Assembly (NCBI GenBank): GCA_049997835.1
Contig: JBEKSI010000001.1
Coordinates: 1 to 41,551 of the forward strand
DNA length: 41,551 nucleotides
Origin: Minisyncoccia bacterium
GTDB taxonomy: Bacteria; Patescibacteriota; Minisyncoccia; UBA6257; GWB1-50-10
Direction of reading: 5' to 3'
In this document: in pieces, positions 2,536 to 41,551 of the stretch
How positions within the stretch are numbered: position 1 is the first letter of the stretch
Layout: each line of letters begins with the position of its first letter
The notes under the pieces: model-generated
Databases searched by the model: none
The model's input: the letters and a program-made list of their open reading frames with translations, nothing else
What the model was told of the DNA's origin: nothing
Position numbers and translations under genes: made by a program

Positions 2536-3195
2536 ATGTCCAATTTTCCTGACGTTAATTCATCCGAAGAAGAAATTGTTACCTTTTGCCAGCAAGAAGC
2601 TGGCGGAAACCCAGGTGTAGGAGTCGGACATGAAATGCGCTTGAATTATGGGCTAAATTTATTAGCGCATAAACAGCAACAAAAACTACTCGCTAATCAA
2701 GACAATTCCAATCGTAATTTAATTTTCTGGACAAAGATTCTAGCCTTGACGACTATTGGCTTGGCAATGGTTACTGCTATTCTAGCTGGCATTACGTACC
2801 AATCCAGTCAACGTCAAATCACTTTAGAATTACTCCCTTCTGTAGAAGCAAATTACGATGCAGGTAGTGCCGTGATTAATGTCATAAATCGAGGCAGGGG
2901 GAACTTATACATTTGGGGGGATAAATTTGGAAACGGATCTCCTGTTATAGATAATTTTGGAGTGCTTTTTGGTCCCGGAAGCACCTTTCATATTCCAGTT
3001 GATAATTTAGAAATGACAGCAGCCATAAAATCTTCTATGCGGGATGCAACATCGACATTTATTAATTTTGAGATTTATTTTAAAAACCAAGACGAAACAA
3101 AATTTGTATCTAGAAACGCCCTCTCTATTTTTGAACACAATGGGACAACAGAAATCGATAGCCAAACTAGATCTATAGATCAAGTTGATTGGTAA
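2536..3195 (+). CDS. Hypothetical membrane-anchored protein
   Basis: 219-aa ORF with a central TM segment (ILALTTIGLAMVTAILAGI). TAAAAT at 2524-2529 lies 6 nt before the ATG. AT-rich codon usage. Confidence 0.5.
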   Translation: MSNFPDVNSSEEEIVTFCQQEAGGNPGVGVGHEMRLNYGLNLLAHKQQQKLLANQDNSNRNLIFWTKILALTTIGLAMVTAILAGITYQSSQRQITLELLPSVEANYDAGSAVINVINRGRGNLYIWGDKFGNGSPVIDNFGVLFGPGSTFHIPVDNLEMTAAIKSSMRDATSTFINFEIYFKNQDETKFVSRNALSIFEHNGTTEIDSQTRSIDQVDW

Positions 3196-3202
3196 ACATT
3201 AA

Positions 3203-3721
3203 ATGCTTACCAAAGACCAAGAAAAATGGATTAATCATCTTTCTAATGATGACACAATAAAAATCGTTCCTTTTGATCCGCGCAGCCAAGAAGAGTTTGA
3301 ACAAGTAAAGTCGTTGATTCAATCTAAAATCGGCTCAACGGTCAGAGTTGAACATCGCGGGGCGACCAGTCTTGGTATATCTGGCCAGAACGAGATTGAT
3401 ATTTATGTTCCGGTACCGGGAAATCTTTTTAATAGCTTTATAATCAAACTTTCAGAATTGTTTGGAAAACCTCATAGTCATTATCCCTTAGAAAGAGCGC
3501 GGTTTATTGCTTCTGATGATGGAAAAAGAATTGATGTTCATCTCGTGAATGAAGGGCATGCTAATTGGTTAAATAGTGAAAAATTTGAGAATTATCTTAA
3601 GATACATCCGGAAACCCTGGAGGAATACAGAATACTAAAAGAATCGGGCGACGGACTTAGTATTAGAAAATATTACCGGAGTAAGGCAGAATTTATTAAT
3701 AGTGTTTTGGAGAAAGCATAA
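3203..3721 (+). CDS. GrpB-family (nucleotidyltransferase-fold) protein
   Basis: VEHRGATSLGISGQNEIDIYVPV resembles the GrpB HxGSTS...IDI core, and the size is about 170 aa. Confidence 0.6.
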   Translation: MLTKDQEKWINHLSNDDTIKIVPFDPRSQEEFEQVKSLIQSKIGSTVRVEHRGATSLGISGQNEIDIYVPVPGNLFNSFIIKLSELFGKPHSHYPLERARFIASDDGKRIDVHLVNEGHANWLNSEKFENYLKIHPETLEEYRILKESGDGLSIRKYYRSKAEFINSVLEKA

Positions 3722-3886
3722 AACAACGGTCGTCTGGACTCTTTTTATTTTCCATTCAGGCAGCTTTTCCCATCTTCCTTTCATCCCTCCTTTCGTTTAC
3801 ACTAGAAATCAAAGAATTAAAGATCAATTCAACGAATGATTTTATGTCTTTAAGGTCATTTTCGTTCCAATTGGTTCTCATTAAGG

Positions 3887-3950
3887 CTACAAAATCTATC
3901 TATTAAGCAAAAACACCCACCTTACTAAGTGGGTATTTTTGTTTTATAAT
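3887..3950 (+). repeat. 64-nt direct repeat, copy 2
   Basis: CTACAAAATCTATCTATTAAGCAAAAACACCCACCTTACTAAGTGGGTATTTTTGTTTTATAAT. Its TATAAT (3945-3950) lies 8 nt before the ATG at 3959. Confidence 0.8.
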
Positions 3951-3958
3951 TTTAGAAA

Positions 3959-4597
3959 ATGAAGAACACCTATTTTCCACCAGAGTTTAAAAAAGGGCAG
4001 TTTACTTGTCCTTATTGTGGAGTTTTGGCAGATCAAACTTGGCAAGATATTGTTATGGCCTCTGTTACCAAAGAGTTTGATAAAATTTGGGTTTCACGTT
4101 GCACAAATAGAAATTGTCAACGTGAGTGTCTTTGGATCGGAGGTAAGATGGCTATTCCGGATATGGAAGGAGTTTCGTATCCAAATGAAGATTTAAATCA
4201 AGAAATCCAAGAAGATTATATGGAAGCTCGATCGATTTTATCTCGCTCACCTAGAGGTGCGGCAGCATTATTAAGACTTTCGATCCAGAAACTATGTAAG
4301 CAACTTAGAGAGTCAGGTAGAGATATTAATGCCGATATAGCTTCCTTAGTTAAAAAAGGACTCAGACCAAGCATACAAAAATCGTTAGACATTGTAAGAG
4401 TAACTGGCAATGAGTCAGTTCATCCTGGTGTTTTAGACATGAAGGATAATCGTGAAATTGCATTAAAATTATTTGATTTAGTCAATCTGATTGCAGATGT
4501 CATGATTTCTGAGCCTAAACGAGTTGACGAACTTTACGAGTCTGTTATTCCGGAGGGAAAGAAAAAAGCGATAGTAGAACGCGACACCCCCCATTAA
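3959..4597 (+). CDS. Zinc-ribbon plus DUF4145-like helical domain protein
   Basis: N-terminal CPYCG...CTNRNC cysteine pairs. The C-terminal region (AALLRLSIQKLCKQL ... IVRVTGNESVHPG) fits the R-x-x-G-N-x-x-x-H pattern I associate with DUF4145. Confidence 0.55.
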   Translation: MKNTYFPPEFKKGQFTCPYCGVLADQTWQDIVMASVTKEFDKIWVSRCTNRNCQRECLWIGGKMAIPDMEGVSYPNEDLNQEIQEDYMEARSILSRSPRGAAALLRLSIQKLCKQLRESGRDINADIASLVKKGLRPSIQKSLDIVRVTGNESVHPGVLDMKDNREIALKLFDLVNLIADVMISEPKRVDELYESVIPEGKKKAIVERDTPH

Positions 4598-4972
4598 ATG
4601 ACTGAATTTCTCAAAAAATATAAAAAAGGGTTAGTAATTATCGGCATCATTATATTCTTCATTATCACCCTGAGTTTATTAGGTGGTAATTCATCTATAT
4701 CAAATATTCCACAGTCTCAAAATACAAACTCGGCACAGATCACTAATATTCTCTCGCAGCCGACCAGCACTACTAGTAGCAATAGTAGCAATCTTTCAAA
4801 TAATAATACCTACGTAAACTCCGCAGGAAATACAGTTCACTCTCCGGCATATACAGAAAACGGAAGTGCTCCTACTAATGCCTCAGCGCAATGTCGAGAT
4901 GGGACGTATAGTTTCAGTCAAAGTCGAAGTGGTACCTGCTCACATCACGGCGGAGTAGCGAAGTGGCTATAA
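4598..4972 (+). CDS. DUF3761-like secreted/anchored protein
   Basis: N-terminal TM, an S/T/N-rich linker, and C-terminal CRDGTYSFSQSRSGTCSHHGGVAKWL. The ATG directly abuts the upstream stop. Confidence 0.6.
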   Translation: MTEFLKKYKKGLVIIGIIIFFIITLSLLGGNSSISNIPQSQNTNSAQITNILSQPTSTTSSNSSNLSNNNTYVNSAGNTVHSPAYTENGSAPTNASAQCRDGTYSFSQSRSGTCSHHGGVAKWL

Positions 4973-5439
4973 CAAACGCCATTAATTATTTTAATATGGG
5001 ACTTGATAAAATAAGCAATAAATTAAATATCAAAGATTTTCGAAGATTCAGATGGTTTTTCTGGATTCTAATTTTAAGTTTGCTGTTCCTCGGTTATATA
5101 TTTCTTAATCAAGAGAAGTTTTTCTACAGCTCCGATATTAATGGCGATCATTATTTGTACAGATTTTTATGGGTGTTGCCATTCTCATTTATAGGGTTCG
5201 CCTCACTTATTTTGATGGCTGCAAAGAATGGTCGTGTAAAAGATGATGCGCCGTGGTCCTCTTATGTATTTTCTTATTTCCTAAGATTAATCGCTTTTTC
5301 GTTAATTATATTTTCGGTTTTGCATATATTTGAATCTACTTCCAACTATTTATATTATTTCTTTTCAGCAGGGTTGGGTTTATATGTTGGCTATAAAATC
5401 GATGCTATTAAACTTGAGGATATTAATAAACCAAAGTAA
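4963..5439 (+). CDS. Multi-pass membrane protein, unknown function
   Basis: Several hydrophobic segments. Overlaps the upstream gene by 10 nt. Confidence 0.5.
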   Translation: MAITNAINYFNMGLDKISNKLNIKDFRRFRWFFWILILSLLFLGYIFLNQEKFFYSSDINGDHYLYRFLWVLPFSFIGFASLILMAAKNGRVKDDAPWSSYVFSYFLRLIAFSLIIFSVLHIFESTSNYLYYFFSAGLGLYVGYKIDAIKLEDINKPK

Positions 5440-6095: not shown

Positions 6096-6459
6096 AAATA
6101 TTCTCTTCAAGCAACTCTTCCATATTTCCTTTTGTTTATCTAATAAAATAACAAGAGGTTTGAATTTTGTTGAGAAAACTGTCTCGCAGGCCGAGCGGGC
6201 AGGTGTCTGCCTACGGCAGACGAGCGAGGCCGAGAGCAAGTGCAAATTCCTCGCTGGGAAATTTGATAACGTGTTTTCGAAACGAAATTCAAACCCCGCA
6301 CACCAAACCCTACTGGTCTGAGAACGCGGGGAAGGACGCGAGTTTTTACATATCGCATTAGAGTTTTTGACAAAACCCGCCCAAAAGCTCTATTGTGAAC
6401 CCAGTTGTTTAGAAAATGATTTAGAAAACAAAATCACCTCTTGAGAGGAGGATTGTAAA

Positions 6460-6837
6460 ATGCTAAAAAAATCCGAGATTAAACCGGGCGTTATCTTATG
6501 CTGGGGGATAGATCACCCAATCAACAAATTCTCAATAGATTATTGGTCGGTTTTGGAAGTTGGTGAATTGTCTTTCAAGATTGAACTGTTGGGTGGAGTA
6601 AACGAGGTGAAAGAAATTCATTTTGATTCAGAGTTTTTCTCCCGCATGAAAATCTCCAATTCCGAGGAAGTATTTTTATCCTTTGTTAAAATGGAGAAAA
6701 AATTCGCTGAGGAAAGAATCGCAAAAAAGCGGGAACTGGAAGAATTTGAATCAAAATATCAGGAATTCCATGAAAAGGTAATGGAATTCAAGCGCAGGTT
6801 CAAACCTAATTCAAATCTCGCTTCGCAAGCGGCATAG
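6460..6837 (+). CDS. Hypothetical protein (charged, coiled-coil-like C-terminus)
   Basis: GAGGAGG lies 9 nt upstream of the ATG. TTGACA at 6366-6371 is a possible -35. A terminator follows. Confidence 0.5.
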   Translation: MLKKSEIKPGVILCWGIDHPINKFSIDYWSVLEVGELSFKIELLGGVNEVKEIHFDSEFFSRMKISNSEEVFLSFVKMEKKFAEERIAKKRELEEFESKYQEFHEKVMEFKRRFKPNSNLASQAA

Positions 6838-6859
6838 CTATTAACGCCATAAGCGTGGG

Positions 6860-6893
6860 CCAGTTCAGATGTTTTTTGAACTGGTTTTTATTT
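6860..6893 (+). terminator. Intrinsic terminator
   Basis: CCAGTTCA (6860-6867) pairs with TGAACTGG (6877-6884), followed by TTTTTATTT. Confidence 0.7.
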
Positions 6894-7002
6894 AACGGGG
6901 ATAATTCCGCAATGAAAACCGCAAATTGACAAGAAGACGGTTGTGTGCTATGTTTTTACCAGAAATAAGTTCAACAGAACTTTTAACATATTTGGAGGAC
7001 GT

Positions 7003-7419: not shown

Positions 7420-7977
7420 ATGGATCCCGTTAGAAATAAGCCGCCCCAAGTGGCTGCCGCCATGCCTTCGGCAGGGCGGATTTCTAACGGGATGGAAATA
7501 ATCGCGGTGCTTCACAACGTCCGGAGTTTGCACAACGTCGGTTCCATGTTCAGAACGGCGGATGCGGCCGGCGTCTCAAAAATTTATCTCTGCGGCATCA
7601 CGCCCGCTCCGACAGACAGGTTTGGAAAAGTGATTCCGCAGCTTGCGAAGGTGGCGCTCGGCGCCGAAAAAACCGTGCCTTGGGAATCGGTGAAATCGCC
7701 GCAGGCCGTTTTAAAACTCATTAAAATTTTAAAGAAAGAGGGATATAAGATATTGGCCATTGAACAATCTGAAAAATCGATTCCATATTACCAACTAAAA
7801 GCTAAAAGCTCACAGCTAAAAGCTGTTTTAATAATGGGAAATGAGGTAAAGGGTCTGCCCAAAAGCATTCTTAAGAATGCCGATAAGATACTGGAAATCC
7901 CCATGCAGGGAGATAAAGAATCGCTGAATGTGAGCGTCGCTTTCGGTATCGTAATTTTTGGTTTATTATATAGATAA
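7420..7977 (+). CDS. SpoU/TrmH-family RNA 2'-O-methyltransferase
   Basis: HNVGSMFRTADAAGV, MGNEVKGL and IPMQG..ESLNVSVA motifs. TGtTAGAAT at 7405-7413 lies 6 nt before ATG 7420. An alternative start at 7492 (MEII...) would remove a 24-aa N-terminal extension. Confidence 0.8.
   Translation: MDPVRNKPPQVAAAMPSAGRISNGMEIIAVLHNVRSLHNVGSMFRTADAAGVSKIYLCGITPAPTDRFGKVIPQLAKVALGAEKTVPWESVKSPQAVLKLIKILKKEGYKILAIEQSEKSIPYYQLKAKSSQLKAVLIMGNEVKGLPKSILKNADKILEIPMQGDKESLNVSVAFGIVIFGLLYR
7424..7493 (+). other. 70-nt hairpin embedded in the first 24 codons of the SpoU ORF
   Basis: ATCCCGTTAGAAAT..CCGCCC (7424-7446) pairs with GGGCGGATTTCTAACGGGAT (7474-7493). There is an inner CTGCCG/CGGCAG stem. Confidence 0.8.
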
Positions 7978-21541: not shown

Positions 21542-23025
<1,484 letters not shown>

Positions 23026-34708: not shown

Positions 34709-34780
34709 GCCACCTTAGCTCAGCGGTAGAGCAACACTTTTGTAAAGTGAAGGTCCTCGGTTCAAATCCGAGAGGTGGCT
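34709..34780 (+). tRNA. tRNA-Thr (anticodon UGU), no encoded CCA
   Basis: Hand-folded cloverleaf: GCCACCT/AGGTGGC acceptor, GCTC-AGCGGTA-GAGC D-arm, anticodon loop TTTGTAA, CTCGG-TTCAAAT-CCGAG T-arm, discriminator T. Confidence 0.9.
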
Positions 34781-36225: not shown

Positions 36226-36972
36226 ATGAGTGGGAATTTATATTTCAAAAAGGGAAAATTTAAAAGAGAAAGGGAGGCGAGAAAAAAGAGAGAATTTGAA
36301 GCGAAAGTGGCGGCTTTGAACAGTAAAGATTTCAAGTCAACGAGTAAAAAATGGGATAGAGACACAAAATCTCTTTCTAAAGAATTACTTATCGGTCTTT
36401 ATATTAGGCAGAATAAATCAGTAAATGAAATAGGTAAAATATTGAAATGTTCCTCGCATAAAGTGGCATATTGGATGGAGAAATATAAGATTTTAAGGAG
36501 AAACCAAAGTGAAGCAACATATCAGAAACGCAATCCGCTTGGCGACCCCTTTAATTTAATAGAGCCGAAAAGTTCATCCGAAACTGAATTAATGGGCATG
36601 GGATTGGGACTTTATTGGGGCGAAGGCAATAAGTTAAATAAAAACTCAATTAGATTAGGCAATACTGACCCGGCGCTTATAAAAACATTCATAAGGTTTC
36701 TTAATAAATTCTTTAATATAGATCAAAAGAAAATACGTTTCGGCCTTCAAATTTTCAGCGACATAAAACCATCGGAAGCTTTGAGTTTTTGGATAAAAGA
36801 GTTGAAAGTTGATGAATCTCAATTTCAAAAAGTTGTGGTGACACCATCAAGAGGTGCGGGCACATATAAAAAGAAATTAAAATATGGCGTATTGACAGTT
36901 CATTTTAATAATAAGAAACTTAGGAATGTCATTATTAGTAAATTGAAAGATTACGGATATAATGGCGAGTAA
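36226..36972 (+). CDS. HTH plus single-motif LAGLIDADG-like homing-endonuclease-like protein
   Basis: SVNEIGKILKCSSHKVAYWMEKY resembles an HTH. MGLGLYWGEGNK resembles LAGLIDADG blocks such as the LLGLWIGDG recalled from PI-SceI. AT-rich codon usage. The stop codon directly abuts the tRNA. Confidence 0.5.
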   Translation: MSGNLYFKKGKFKREREARKKREFEAKVAALNSKDFKSTSKKWDRDTKSLSKELLIGLYIRQNKSVNEIGKILKCSSHKVAYWMEKYKILRRNQSEATYQKRNPLGDPFNLIEPKSSSETELMGMGLGLYWGEGNKLNKNSIRLGNTDPALIKTFIRFLNKFFNIDQKKIRFGLQIFSDIKPSEALSFWIKELKVDESQFQKVVVTPSRGAGTYKKKLKYGVLTVHFNNKKLRNVIISKLKDYGYNGE

Positions 36973-37232
36973 GCCAATGTAGCTCAGCTGGTAGAGCAAC
37001 TCCATGGTGGAACGCAAATCCCGCCCACCAAAGAAGCAATTCTTTAGTGAATCCCGAATAACGGTTAAAGTCCAAATGGATAAGACCGTGGCATCCCGAA
37101 ACTTTCTAGGGAGGCCCGAACGACTGACAAGGGTGCGCCTCGGGCGCAAAGATACAGTCTAGCCCTCTCGGATAAAAGAAGGAGAGGTGTAAGCGAAGGA
37201 GTAGGTCGGCAGTTCAAATCTGCCCATTGGCT
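36973..37232 (+). tRNA. tRNA-Thr (anticodon GGU inferred) interrupted in the anticodon loop by a 187-nt intron
   Basis: The 5' half is GCCAATG TA GCTC AGCTGGTA GAGC A ACTCC ATGGT. The 3' half is AA GGAGT AGGTC GGCAG TTCAAAT CTGCC CATTGGC T. All four stems pair once 37009-37195 is removed, and the arms resemble E. coli tRNA-Thr(GGU) as recalled. Confidence 0.8.
37009..37195 (+). mobile_element. Group I-like intron (no internal ORF)
   Basis: The 5' exon ends in U and the intron ends in G. P2-like hairpin AAAGAA-GCAA-TTCTTT (37030-37045). GACUG (37122-37126) / CAGUC (37155-37159) form a P7-like pairing, with AAAGAUACAGUC resembling the group I J8/7-P7 (S) consensus and CGACUGACAAGGG resembling the R element. 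Confidence 0.6.
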
Positions 37233-37570: not shown

Positions 37571-37641
37571 GGGGGCATATTTCAATGGTAGAATCGCGGT
37601 CTCCAAAACCGCTAATGTAGGTTCGATTCCTACTGCCCCCG
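37571..37641 (+). tRNA. tRNA-Trp (anticodon CCA)
   Basis: GGGGGCA/TGCCCCC acceptor, anticodon loop CTCCAAA, GTAGG-TTCGATT-CCTAC T-arm, discriminator G. Confidence 0.9.
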
Positions 37642-39226: not shown

Positions 39227-39390
39227 TTATCTTGAGCCGCGCCGAAAGGATGTTCTGAACGAACTTTCAAAAATAAATATCTGATTGAAGTAGTAACAAA
39301 ACTCAAAAAACAAGTCAGTTTTTTGAGGTAGAAATTAACAGTGCTTCACGTAGCGATTCGTGAAGCGGTCCCGAGCGAAAGCGAGGGACT

Positions 39391-41551
<2,161 letters not shown>

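What the first reader, a model, noticed from the sequence alone, without database searches (positions are those of the whole stretch)
36973..37232. tRNA-Thr(GGU) interrupted after anticodon position 36 by a 187-nt group I-like intron
Removing 37009-37195 yields a canonical cloverleaf with anticodon loop A-U-G-G-U-A-A. Its D, variable and T arms are nearly identical to E. coli tRNA-Thr(GGU) as recalled (AGGUCGGCAGUUC.AAUCUGCC). This is the only 7-nt-loop junction that also satisfies the group I rules: U before the 5' splice site and G as the last intron base. The position after the third anticodon base matches the bacterial tRNA-Ile(CAU) and tRNA-Arg(CCU) introns as I remember them. The intron has a P2-like AAAGAA-GCAA-TTCTTT hairpin very similar to the cyanobacterial tRNA-Leu intron. 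It also has a GACUG/CAGUC P7 candidate and an AAAGAUACAGUC segment matching the J8/7-P7 consensus. I could not assign P1/IGS or P3 confidently; the best P1 is only GGU with GCC at 37023-37025. I am not aware of group I introns described in tRNA-Thr or in tRNAs of this kind of bacterium.
Basis: partly seen in the sequence, partly recalled or inferred. Interest (0 to 1): 0.75.

Follow-up and report, generated by a model that had tools for sequence, protein, structure and literature searches.

The report
Group I intron splitting tRNA-Thr(GGU)
The threonine tRNA gene of this tiny-genome (Patescibacteria) bacterium is interrupted right after its anticodon by a compact 187-base self-splicing-type (group I) intron; it belongs to a large family that standard annotation misses, but this kind of tRNA intron has been described before.

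Summary
Removing the 187 nt gives a canonical tRNA-Thr(GGU). An uninterrupted relative (L048) is identical across the junction.

The group I reading is supported by comparative structure, not by Rfam. RF00028 gives only 9.7 bits here, and none of 20 relatives reaches its threshold. I collected over 150 homologous introns at the same site in Patescibacteria. In 100 distinct sequences that played no part in building the model, 95.7% of cells pair, against 76% when shuffled. 45 of 53 pairs show compensatory changes.

P2, P4-P6, P8 and P9 covary, as do the P3 pseudoknot and P9.0. P7 is almost invariant, and the last intron base is G in every intron mapped.

The novelty claim fails. A 2020 preprint by Williams already lists a "Thr.5Ug" class and CPR tRNA introns. 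This is a divergent member that Rfam does not detect.

Side findings:
- Intron relatives occur in phage contigs.
- An uncharacterised HTH protein gene sits directly 5' of tRNA-Thr(GGU), with or without the intron.

The parts
36973..37008 (+). tRNA-Thr(GGU) exon 1 (nt 1-36; anticodon G34 G35 U36 at 37006-37008)
   Evidence: Spliced product is called tRNA-Thr(ggt). Identical to intronless allele L048.
37009..37195 (+). Group I intron, 187 nt, with no ORF on its own strand
   Evidence: Family covariance model 188.8 bits (window sequence was in the seed). Structure and covariation.
37006..37025 (+). P1 hairpin: GGU|GG (37006-37010) pairs with the IGS CCGCC (37021-37025); U37008·G37023 is the splice-site wobble; L1 is 37011-37020
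   Evidence: U·G in 98 of 98 sequences. The neighbouring pairs covary: AU 41, GU 41, GC 9, UA 5, CG 2.
37026..37049 (+). P2 hairpin with GNRA-type loop GCAA (37036-37039)
   Evidence: Every P2 pair has compensatory changes; the loop stays GNRA.
37053..37055 (+). P3 5' strand (CCC), pairs with GGG at 37131-37133 (pseudoknot)
   Evidence: Not part of the covariance model, yet 98.6% paired, with CG to UA double changes in 2 and 5 sequences.
37056..37089 (+). J3/4 GAAUA; P4 (37061-37066 with 37084-37089); J4/5; P5 (37071-37080); J5/4
   Evidence: P4 100% paired. P5 covaries: GC, GU, CG, AU and UA all seen.
37090..37116 (+). P6 hairpin (GGCAUCCC / GGGAGGCC)
   Evidence: All six pairs have compensatory changes.
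37117..37133 (+). J6/7 CGAAC, P7 5' strand GACUG (37122-37126), J7/3 ACAA, P3 3' strand GGG (37131-37133)
   Evidence: CGAACGACUG.CAA is invariant in the 46 genome-derived introns, which were not selected on this motif. P7 is 100% paired, with GC to AU in 2 sequences.
37134..37148 (+). P8 hairpin (UGCGCC UCG GGCGCA)
   Evidence: 98.8% paired; all four modelled pairs covary strongly.
37149..37159 (+). J8/7 AAGAUA and P7 3' strand CAGUC
   Evidence: Matches the Rfam RF00028 consensus AAGAUAUAGUC. All but one J8/7 base and one P7 base are invariant in the 46 genome-derived introns.
37160..37195 (+). J7/9 UAGC, whose G37162 and C37163 form P9.0 with G37193 and C37194; P9 hairpin 37164-37187; tail UGUAAGCG ending in the last intron base, G37195
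   Evidence: P9.0 is 97% paired and not in the model: GC 52, AU 37, UA 5, CG 2 and CG 47, UA 43, UG 7. The last intron base is G in all 46 genome-derived introns.
37196..37232 (+). tRNA-Thr(GGU) exon 2 (nt 37-73; no encoded CCA)
36226..36972 (+). Neighbouring 248-aa ORF (HTH plus an unknown C-terminal domain) whose TAA abuts tRNA nt 1. It is linked to the tRNA-Thr(GGU) locus, not strictly to the intron.

Best explanation
37009-37195 is a compact group I intron in the anticodon loop of the tRNA-Thr(GGU) gene, between U36 and A37. Its host is a Minisyncoccia (Patescibacteria/CPR) bacterium. Inferred mechanism: the pre-tRNA folds so that the anticodon GGU pairs with the intron's guide sequence GCC (P1), with U36·G37023 marking the 5' splice site. 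A free guanosine bound in P7 attacks that site. P9.0 then brings the intron's last base, G37195, into the same pocket. The freed 3'-OH of U36 attacks the 3' splice site and joins U36 to A37. P10 is at most one base pair, so the tRNA's own anticodon stem probably holds the two exons together, as shown for the Anabaena tRNA-Leu intron. Shown here: the exact boundaries, the empty-site allele, the complete helix set with covariation, and strong conservation of the catalytic core in more than 150 relatives. Inferred: that the RNA splices, and that it does so without a protein.
For: Boundaries and tRNA identity. The same junction is seen in 46 of 46 distinct genome-derived homologues and in about 110 of 120 metagenome contigs picked only by an intron-core motif. 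Presence and absence at one locus: 43 split and 35 unsplit tRNA-Thr(GGU) genes among 80 syntenic loci, plus the empty site L048. Structure: RNAalifold recovers P1, P2 and P4-P9 on its own, and 29 of 48 pairs have compensatory changes. On 100 distinct metagenome introns not used to build the model, 95.7% of cells pair, against 76.4% shuffled and 32-45% when the partners are slid. 45 of 53 pairs change on both sides. The U·G wobble is 98 of 98. The P3 and P9.0 pseudoknot pairs, which the model does not contain, are 98.6% and 97% paired and covary. The family model also cross-hits a neighbouring intron that passes Rfam RF00028 at 62.2 bits. Three family members in one phage-like gene can be removed in silico to restore a roughly 456-aa ORF, so relatives behave as introns elsewhere too. 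Literature: the Thr.5Ug class is known.
Against: Rfam RF00028 gives only 9.7 bits and E = 7.6, and nothing at gathering level. J6/7-P7 reads CGAACGACUG instead of the near-universal GUAGAGACUA of described bacterial tRNA introns. There are no RNA data: splicing, its dependence on guanosine and its independence of protein are untested. Alignment A4 was fitted to the model's nested helices, so those counts lean towards the structure; P3 and P9.0 do not carry this bias. The rest of the genome could not be searched for a second tRNA-Thr(GGU).
Confidence: 0.9

Rival explanations
1. It is a group I-derived intron that no longer splices on its own and needs a protein cofactor, for example the product of the upstream ORF 36226-36972 acting as a maturase.
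For: The intron is very small and has few peripheral elements. Its J6/7-P7 is atypical. An uncharacterised DNA/RNA-binding-type protein gene abuts the tRNA in 40 of 96 intron-selected loci.
Against: 56 of 96 intron-bearing loci with enough upstream sequence lack the ORF. 35 of 78 ORF-bearing loci lack the intron. So the ORF cannot be an obligatory, locally encoded cofactor. L2 stays GNRA-type and P9.0 covaries, and other small tRNA introns such as Azoarcus (about 205 nt) self-splice, which is established knowledge.
Confidence: 0.08
2. The gene is a tRNA pseudogene disrupted by an insertion that is not removed.
For: Standard tRNA finders miss the gene, and the whole genome was not available to look for a second copy.
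Against: Both exons are intact and form a perfect cloverleaf. The same split gene persists in more than 150 lineages, with covariation that maintains every intron helix and a conserved core. No second tRNA-Thr(GGU) lies in the window or within ±2.5 kb in any related locus.
Confidence: 0.01
3. It is a protein-spliced, archaeal/eukaryal-type (bulge-helix-bulge) tRNA intron or another kind of element such as a group II intron or an IS.
For: It lies in the anticodon loop, as protein-spliced introns do.
Against: Its position is 36/37, not the canonical 37/38. The conserved architecture is P1-P9 with a U·G wobble and a G as the last intron base. Nothing at this site reaches any Rfam family's gathering score. 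On the intron's own strand no ORF of 60 aa or more overlaps it. No bulge-helix-bulge motif was searched for.
Confidence: 0.01

Closest known systems
'Thr.5Ug' class of group I intron-split bacterial tRNA genes (Williams 2020, bioRxiv 10.1101/2020.01.27.920355; seed Rba53.Thr.5Ug)
   Same: Same isoacceptor (anticodon GGU). Same insertion point, after the fifth anticodon-loop base (nt 36). A U before the intron and a G as its last base. P1 is built on GGU.
   Different: The seed Rba53 is an IC3-like 261-nt intron with the core GGU-GUAGAGACCA. A profile of our family does not detect it. So the same site appears to host at least two intron lineages. Whether Williams' counts already include our family could not be tested.
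Williams seeds Pgr210.Thr.2Ug and Mba143.Tyr.4Ug, whose names read as candidate-phyla genomes (same preprint)
   Same: These are the closest in sequence, at 9.1 and 5.2 bits with the family profile. They share the P3-J3/4-P4 block GAUAACGGUGAA (ours is GAAUAACGGUUAA), ACCGUGG, and J8/7-P7 AAGAUAUAGUC. Size is similar, 209-239 nt.
   Different: They sit in a different tRNA or at a different loop position. Their J6/7-P7 is the standard GUAGAGACUA rather than CGAACGACUG, and overall similarity is weak.
Azoarcus tRNA-Ile(CAU) and Agrobacterium-type tRNA-Arg(CCU) introns (classical Ile2.5Ug and Arg.5Ug, subgroup IC3)
   Same: Same position after nt 36. P1 has only 3 exon base pairs. P2 is capped by a GNRA loop. 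They are small (about 200 nt) and carry no ORF. They work the same way in outline.
   Different: Different core sequences. Ours has no L9 GNRA tetraloop. The subgroup could not be assigned.
Free-standing homing endonuclease next to an ORF-less intron ('collaborative homing': F-CphI/psbA in cyanophage S-PM2, mobE/nrdB in T4; PMC3984707, PMC6083498, PMC2790892)
   Same: An ORF-less group I intron with a separate, sporadically distributed gene inserted immediately beside the interrupted gene. The ORF's N-terminal HTH resembles that of phage HNH endonuclease families.
   Different: No nuclease domain was identified in the ORF. The ORF and the intron each occur without the other. One ORF-bearing allele, L048, keeps the uninterrupted cognate site. 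This is an analogy only.

Membership tests
Group I intron (structural definition) | 5' splice site follows a U that forms a U·G wobble with the internal guide sequence in P1 | tested here: met
   U37008·G37023. U·G in 98 of 98 independent family members, and the flanking P1 pairs covary.
Group I intron (structural definition) | Last intron nucleotide is G, positioned by P9.0 | tested here: met
   G37195. The last base is G in 46 of 46 genome homologues. P9.0 is 97% paired with GC, AU, UA and CG covariation.
Group I intron (structural definition) | Core helices P3-P9 in the canonical order, with the P3/P7 pseudoknot | tested here: met
   RNAalifold finds P4-P9. P3 pairs added by hand are 98.6% paired with compensatory CG to UA changes. 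P7 has one compensatory change and is otherwise invariant.
Group I intron (structural definition) | Conserved J8/7 (AAGAUAUAGUC-like) and A-rich J3/4 and J4/5 | tested here: met
   AAGAUACAGUC aligns to the RF00028 consensus. All but one J8/7 base and one P7 base are invariant in the 46 genome-derived introns, which were not selected on this motif.
Group I intron (Rfam RF00028) | Score at or above the curated gathering threshold (50 bits) | tested here: not met
   9.7 bits, E = 7.6. None of 20 relatives passes. A different intron in L146 does pass, at 62.2 bits, and it cross-hits our model at 30.7 bits.
Group I intron (function) | Guanosine-initiated self-splicing that gives ligated exons | not testable with these tools
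   No RNA data. Indirect support only: exons under purifying selection, and in-silico removal of three relatives restores an ORF.
Williams 2020 class Thr.5Ug | tRNA-Thr split after the fifth anticodon-loop nucleotide, with U before the intron and G as its last base | tested here: met
   class definition.
Williams 2020 class Thr.5Ug | Detected by the gpI_bact_tRNA covariance model, or homologous to seed Rba53 | tested here: inconclusive
   That model cannot be run here. A sequence profile of our family does not hit Rba53 and hits two other seeds only weakly.
Subgroup IC3 (classical bacterial tRNA introns) | IC3 core sequences (J6/7-P7 GUAGAGACUA) and the L2/P8 and L9/P5 tetraloop-receptor pairs | tested here: inconclusive
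   L2 is a conserved GNRA loop. However, J6/7-P7 is CGAACGACUG and L9 is not a tetraloop. The receptors were not analysed.
LAGLIDADG homing endonuclease (for ORF 36226-36972) | Significant match to a LAGLIDADG profile or fold | tested here: not met
   No Pfam hit for the window protein. PF14528 appears only below threshold, in 3 of 24 homologues, best E = 0.032. hhalign probability is 0.1% against I-CreI and 2.3% against I-DmoI, both sequences recalled from memory. Foldseek finds no PDB match with E at or below 0.001.

The most novel reading that the evidence does not exclude
The upstream ORF and the intron may be two cooperating selfish elements at the tRNA-Thr(GGU) locus of Patescibacteria. 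On this reading the ORF encodes a new kind of free-standing homing nuclease. It consists of an HTH of the type seen in phage HNH endonucleases plus an unrecognised, possibly degenerate LAGLIDADG-like catalytic domain. It inserts exactly at the tRNA's 5' edge and often borrows the tRNA's U8-A9-G10 as its stop codon. The intron family would spread with it by co-conversion and be exchanged with CPR phages, which carry relatives in protein genes. One observation fits co-conversion: the anticodon stem is uniform in intron-bearing alleles (33 of 46 are ACTCC) while intronless alleles show 25 different stems.
Probability: 0.2. Interest if true: 0.65.

Novelty: new member of a known kind. Interest (0 to 1): 0.4.

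Why it matters
For annotation: default ARAGORN and Rfam miss this gene, so the genome would look as if it lacked tRNA-Thr(GGU), the decoder of ACC and ACU. The same holds for well over a hundred related Patescibacteria. That could distort completeness or codon-usage inferences for these reduced genomes.

For ribozyme biology: the family is large and very compact (165-221 nt). It has an unusual J6/7-P7 and rich covariation, including P9.0, so it could be useful material for minimal group I ribozymes and for improving the Rfam model.

For mobile-element biology: the same intron lineage occurs in a host tRNA and in phage protein genes. The tight ORF-tRNA arrangement is a testable lead to how introns move in CPR bacteria. 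None of this overturns current understanding.

Tried and rejected
- **Rfam RF00028** as the deciding test. It scores 9.7 bits here. I rejected it as a criterion because none of 20 obvious relatives passes either.
- **ARAGORN intron mode.** It finds the split gene but puts the junction at 34/35, giving Arg(gcg). I rejected that junction because it lacks a U before the intron, gives the wrong isotype, and is contradicted by intronless alleles.
- **A bulged base in P1.** My first hand model had one. I dropped it after columns 9/33 proved to covary.
- **A pairing between the P1 loop triplet (CGC) and the last three intron bases.** It is 88% paired, but only 63 of 100 sequences have letters there, and it competes with the much better supported P9.0. 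I left it as a possible alternative pairing.
- **The ORF as a LAGLIDADG enzyme.** This was my by-eye idea from GLGLYWGEG. Pfam, the PDB profile search, hhalign and Foldseek do not support it.
- **The ORF as strictly intron-associated.** Rejected: 35 of 78 ORF loci have no intron, and 56 of 96 intron loci have no ORF.
- **The thrice-interrupted phage gene of L100 as a major capsid gene.** There is no PHROG hit for the spliced product, so it stays unassigned.
- **blastn of the intron against GenBank phages.** No match.
- **Exact-protein look-ups** of the ORF and of L33. These returned only the source contig.

Full report
**What is at the site**

The window is a whole 41,551-bp contig of a MAG that NCBI labels "Minisyncoccia bacterium" (Patescibacteria/CPR). 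The sequence at 36973-37232 reads exactly as the finding states. Default ARAGORN and the Rfam tRNA model see only tRNA-Thr(UGU) at 34709 and tRNA-Trp at 37571.

Joining 36973-37008 to 37196-37232 gives a 73-nt cloverleaf that ARAGORN calls tRNA-Thr(ggt). ARAGORN's intron mode finds the split gene and the 187-nt length but shifts the junction by two bases, giving "Arg gcg". Only the 36/37 junction has a U before the intron and a G as the last intron base.

The spliced sequence hits a gene annotated tRNA-Thr in 5420 of 5426 E. coli genomes. The copy fetched from one of them lies next to tuf and has anticodon GGU.

**Relatives, and presence or absence of the intron**

The 248-aa ORF just upstream (36226-36972) has more than 1000 homologues. 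I used it as a handle to fetch 80 loci from GTDB species genomes, all but one of them labelled Patescibacteria or unnamed bacteria.
- In 78 of the 80, a tRNA-Thr(GGU) gene follows the ORF directly.
- 43 of those genes are split by a 165-221-nt insert and 35 are uninterrupted.
- All 46 distinct inserts (those from the 80 loci plus the window and three relatives fetched earlier) have the same junction..YNTGGT | ...G | AAGG...
- The uninterrupted gene in L048 is identical to the window's exons through nt 47. Against it the 187 nt appear as one clean insertion.

A second sample did not depend on the ORF. I scanned metagenome contigs for an intron-core motif.

**Structure**

RNAalifold, run on the 46 genome-derived introns, recovered P1, P2, P4, P5, P6, P7, P8, P9 and the anticodon stem on its own. 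29 of the 48 predicted pairs show compensatory changes.

I built a covariance model from that alignment. It finds one site in the window, 37001-37203 at 188.8 bits; the window's own sequence was in the seed alignment, so the score itself is partly by construction. It also aligned 104 metagenome introns that were not used to build it. On the 100 distinct sequences among these:
- 95.7% of cells form a standard pair, against 76.4% when shuffled and 32-45% when the partners are slid.
- 45 of 53 pairs have changes on both sides.
- The splice-site U·G is 98 of 98.
- P3 (CCC 37053-55 with GGG 37131-33) is 98.6% paired, with CG to UA double changes. The model does not contain these pairs.
- P9.0 (G37162, C37163 with G37193, C37194) is 97% paired with strong covariation: GC 52, AU 37, UA 5, CG 2 and CG 47, UA 43, UG 7. 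The model does not contain these pairs either.

P7 (GACUG/CAGUC) is almost invariant. So are J3/4-P4, J6/7 and J8/7, as expected for a catalytic core under selection.

The last base of the intron is G in every intron mapped. P10 is at most one pair (A37 with column 33). The anticodon stem therefore probably aligns the exons, as reported for the Anabaena pre-tRNA (Zaug et al. 1993, cited in PMC3984707).

**Why Rfam fails**

RF00028 gives 9.7 bits and E = 7.6, matching little beyond J8/7-P7. None of 20 relatives reaches its gathering score. A different intron next to a family member in L146 does pass, at 62.2 bits, and our model cross-hits it at 30.7 bits. The failure therefore reflects divergence, for example J6/7-P7 CGAACGACUG instead of GUAGAGACUA, and not the absence of group I character.

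**What is already known**

Williams 2020 (bioRxiv 10.1101/2020.01.27.920355) mapped 5292 intron-split bacterial tRNA genes in 21 classes.
- One class is Thr.5Ug: tRNA-Thr, after the fifth loop base, with U before the intron and G as its last base.
- MAGs of unnamed phyla carry 0.49 such genes per genome.
- Some of the seed names read as candidate-phyla genomes.

PMC8172020 also mentions group I introns in CPR tRNAs.

A sequence profile of our family does not detect the Thr.5Ug seed Rba53. It weakly detects Pgr210.Thr.2Ug (9.1 bits) and Mba143.Tyr.4Ug (5.2 bits). I therefore file this as a new, divergent member of a known kind. I could not run Williams' model to see whether it already captures the family.

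**Mobility and neighbours**

*Exon uniformity.* Intron-bearing alleles are strikingly uniform around the site. 33 of 46 have the anticodon stem ACTCC, and all 46 end in CC. The 35 intronless alleles have 25 different stems. This fits co-conversion during homing, but shared ancestry or a structural requirement could explain it as well.

*Phage copies.* Relatives of the intron occur in 20 IMG/VR viral contigs. In L100 (the same contig as L223), a gene downstream of a portal-like gene carries three copies. Removing them restores a roughly 456-aa ORF. The function of that gene is unassigned.

*The upstream ORF.*
- It is a discrete insertion of about 600-750 bp directly 5' of tRNA-Thr(GGU). Spacing from tRNA-Tyr to tRNA-Thr(GGU) is 650-870 nt with the ORF and 25-390 nt without it, apart from two longer outliers in the ORF-bearing loci.
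- In 39 of 78 loci its stop codon is the tRNA's own U8-A9-G10. In the window its TAA abuts G1 of the tRNA.
- It occurs with the intron (40 of 96 intron-selected loci) and without it (35 of 78 ORF-selected loci).
- It has an N-terminal HTH that matches PHROG families annotated as HNH endonuclease over that region only.
- Its C-terminal domain matches nothing significantly. A LAGLIDADG-like motif seen by eye is not supported.

A collaborative-homing arrangement is an attractive but unproven reading.

**Verdict**

Mechanistically this is an ordinary group I tRNA intron in a class already described. It is notable mainly as a large, compact family that Rfam does not detect, and for its genomic company.

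Noticed in passing
window 36226-36972 (+); L013-L092: An uncharacterised ORF family (HTH plus a C-terminal domain with invariant GxGxG.YWGEG and a near-invariant RLGN(T/S)D motif; more than 1000 homologues) lies directly 5' of tRNA-Thr(GGU) in 78 of 80 genome loci. In 39 of 78 its stop codon is the tRNA's own U8-A9-G10, and other overlaps reach 21 or 38 nt. After RNase P cleavage such an mRNA would have no stop codon. The ORF occurs with and without the intron.
   Followed up: partly
L100 6187-8080 (same contig as L223, IMGVR_UViG_3300020570_000137): A phage-like contig has a portal/adaptor-like ORF at 3102-5015. A downstream gene is interrupted by three introns of the same family (about 6280-6457, 6746-6923 and 7569-7740). 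Removing them restores a roughly 456-aa ORF that has no PHROG match. Two of the three 5' exons also end in GGU.
   Followed up: partly
L213-L232 (IMG/VR contigs): Twenty viral contigs, up to 146 kb long, carry the intron-core motif. Several carry two or three more divergent copies (15-144 bits with the family model). The host genes were not examined.
   Followed up: no
L146 7095-7299 (-): A second, different group I intron lies about 100 nt from the family intron. It passes Rfam RF00028 at 62.2 bits. Its host gene was not identified.
   Followed up: no
L068 182-469 (-): ARAGORN in intron mode calls a tRNA-Asp(GUC) with a 213-nt insert in the anticodon loop, in the same contig as an intron-bearing tRNA-Thr(GGU).
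   Followed up: no
window 21544-23025 and 39385-41551: The 16S and 23S rRNA genes lie 16.4 kb apart, with many predicted ORFs and three tRNA genes between them, so the rRNA genes are unlinked. Those ORFs include FKBP, NUDIX, L33 and PCMT genes and, in syntenic relatives, type II secretion/pilin-like genes. The 23S alignment shows several inserted stretches, for example around 39709-39745.
   Followed up: no
L003 3517-4146, L004 2384-3013: In the closest relatives (ORF 76% identical), an extra 209-aa ORF with no Pfam match sits between the split tRNA-Thr(GGU) and rpmG. It is absent from the window.
   Followed up: no
L188 1744-1859 (+): Rfam hit to LOOT RNA (RF03000) at 49.8 bits against a gathering score of 46.4, about 400 nt downstream of a family intron.
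   Followed up: no
window 37011-37020 versus 37193-37195: The P1 loop triplet C-G-C is complementary to the last three intron bases G-C-G, and the two vary together in relatives (CGU/ACG, CAU/AUG, CUC/GAG). This would compete with P9.0 for the 3' end. It is 88% paired where both sides are present.
   Followed up: partly
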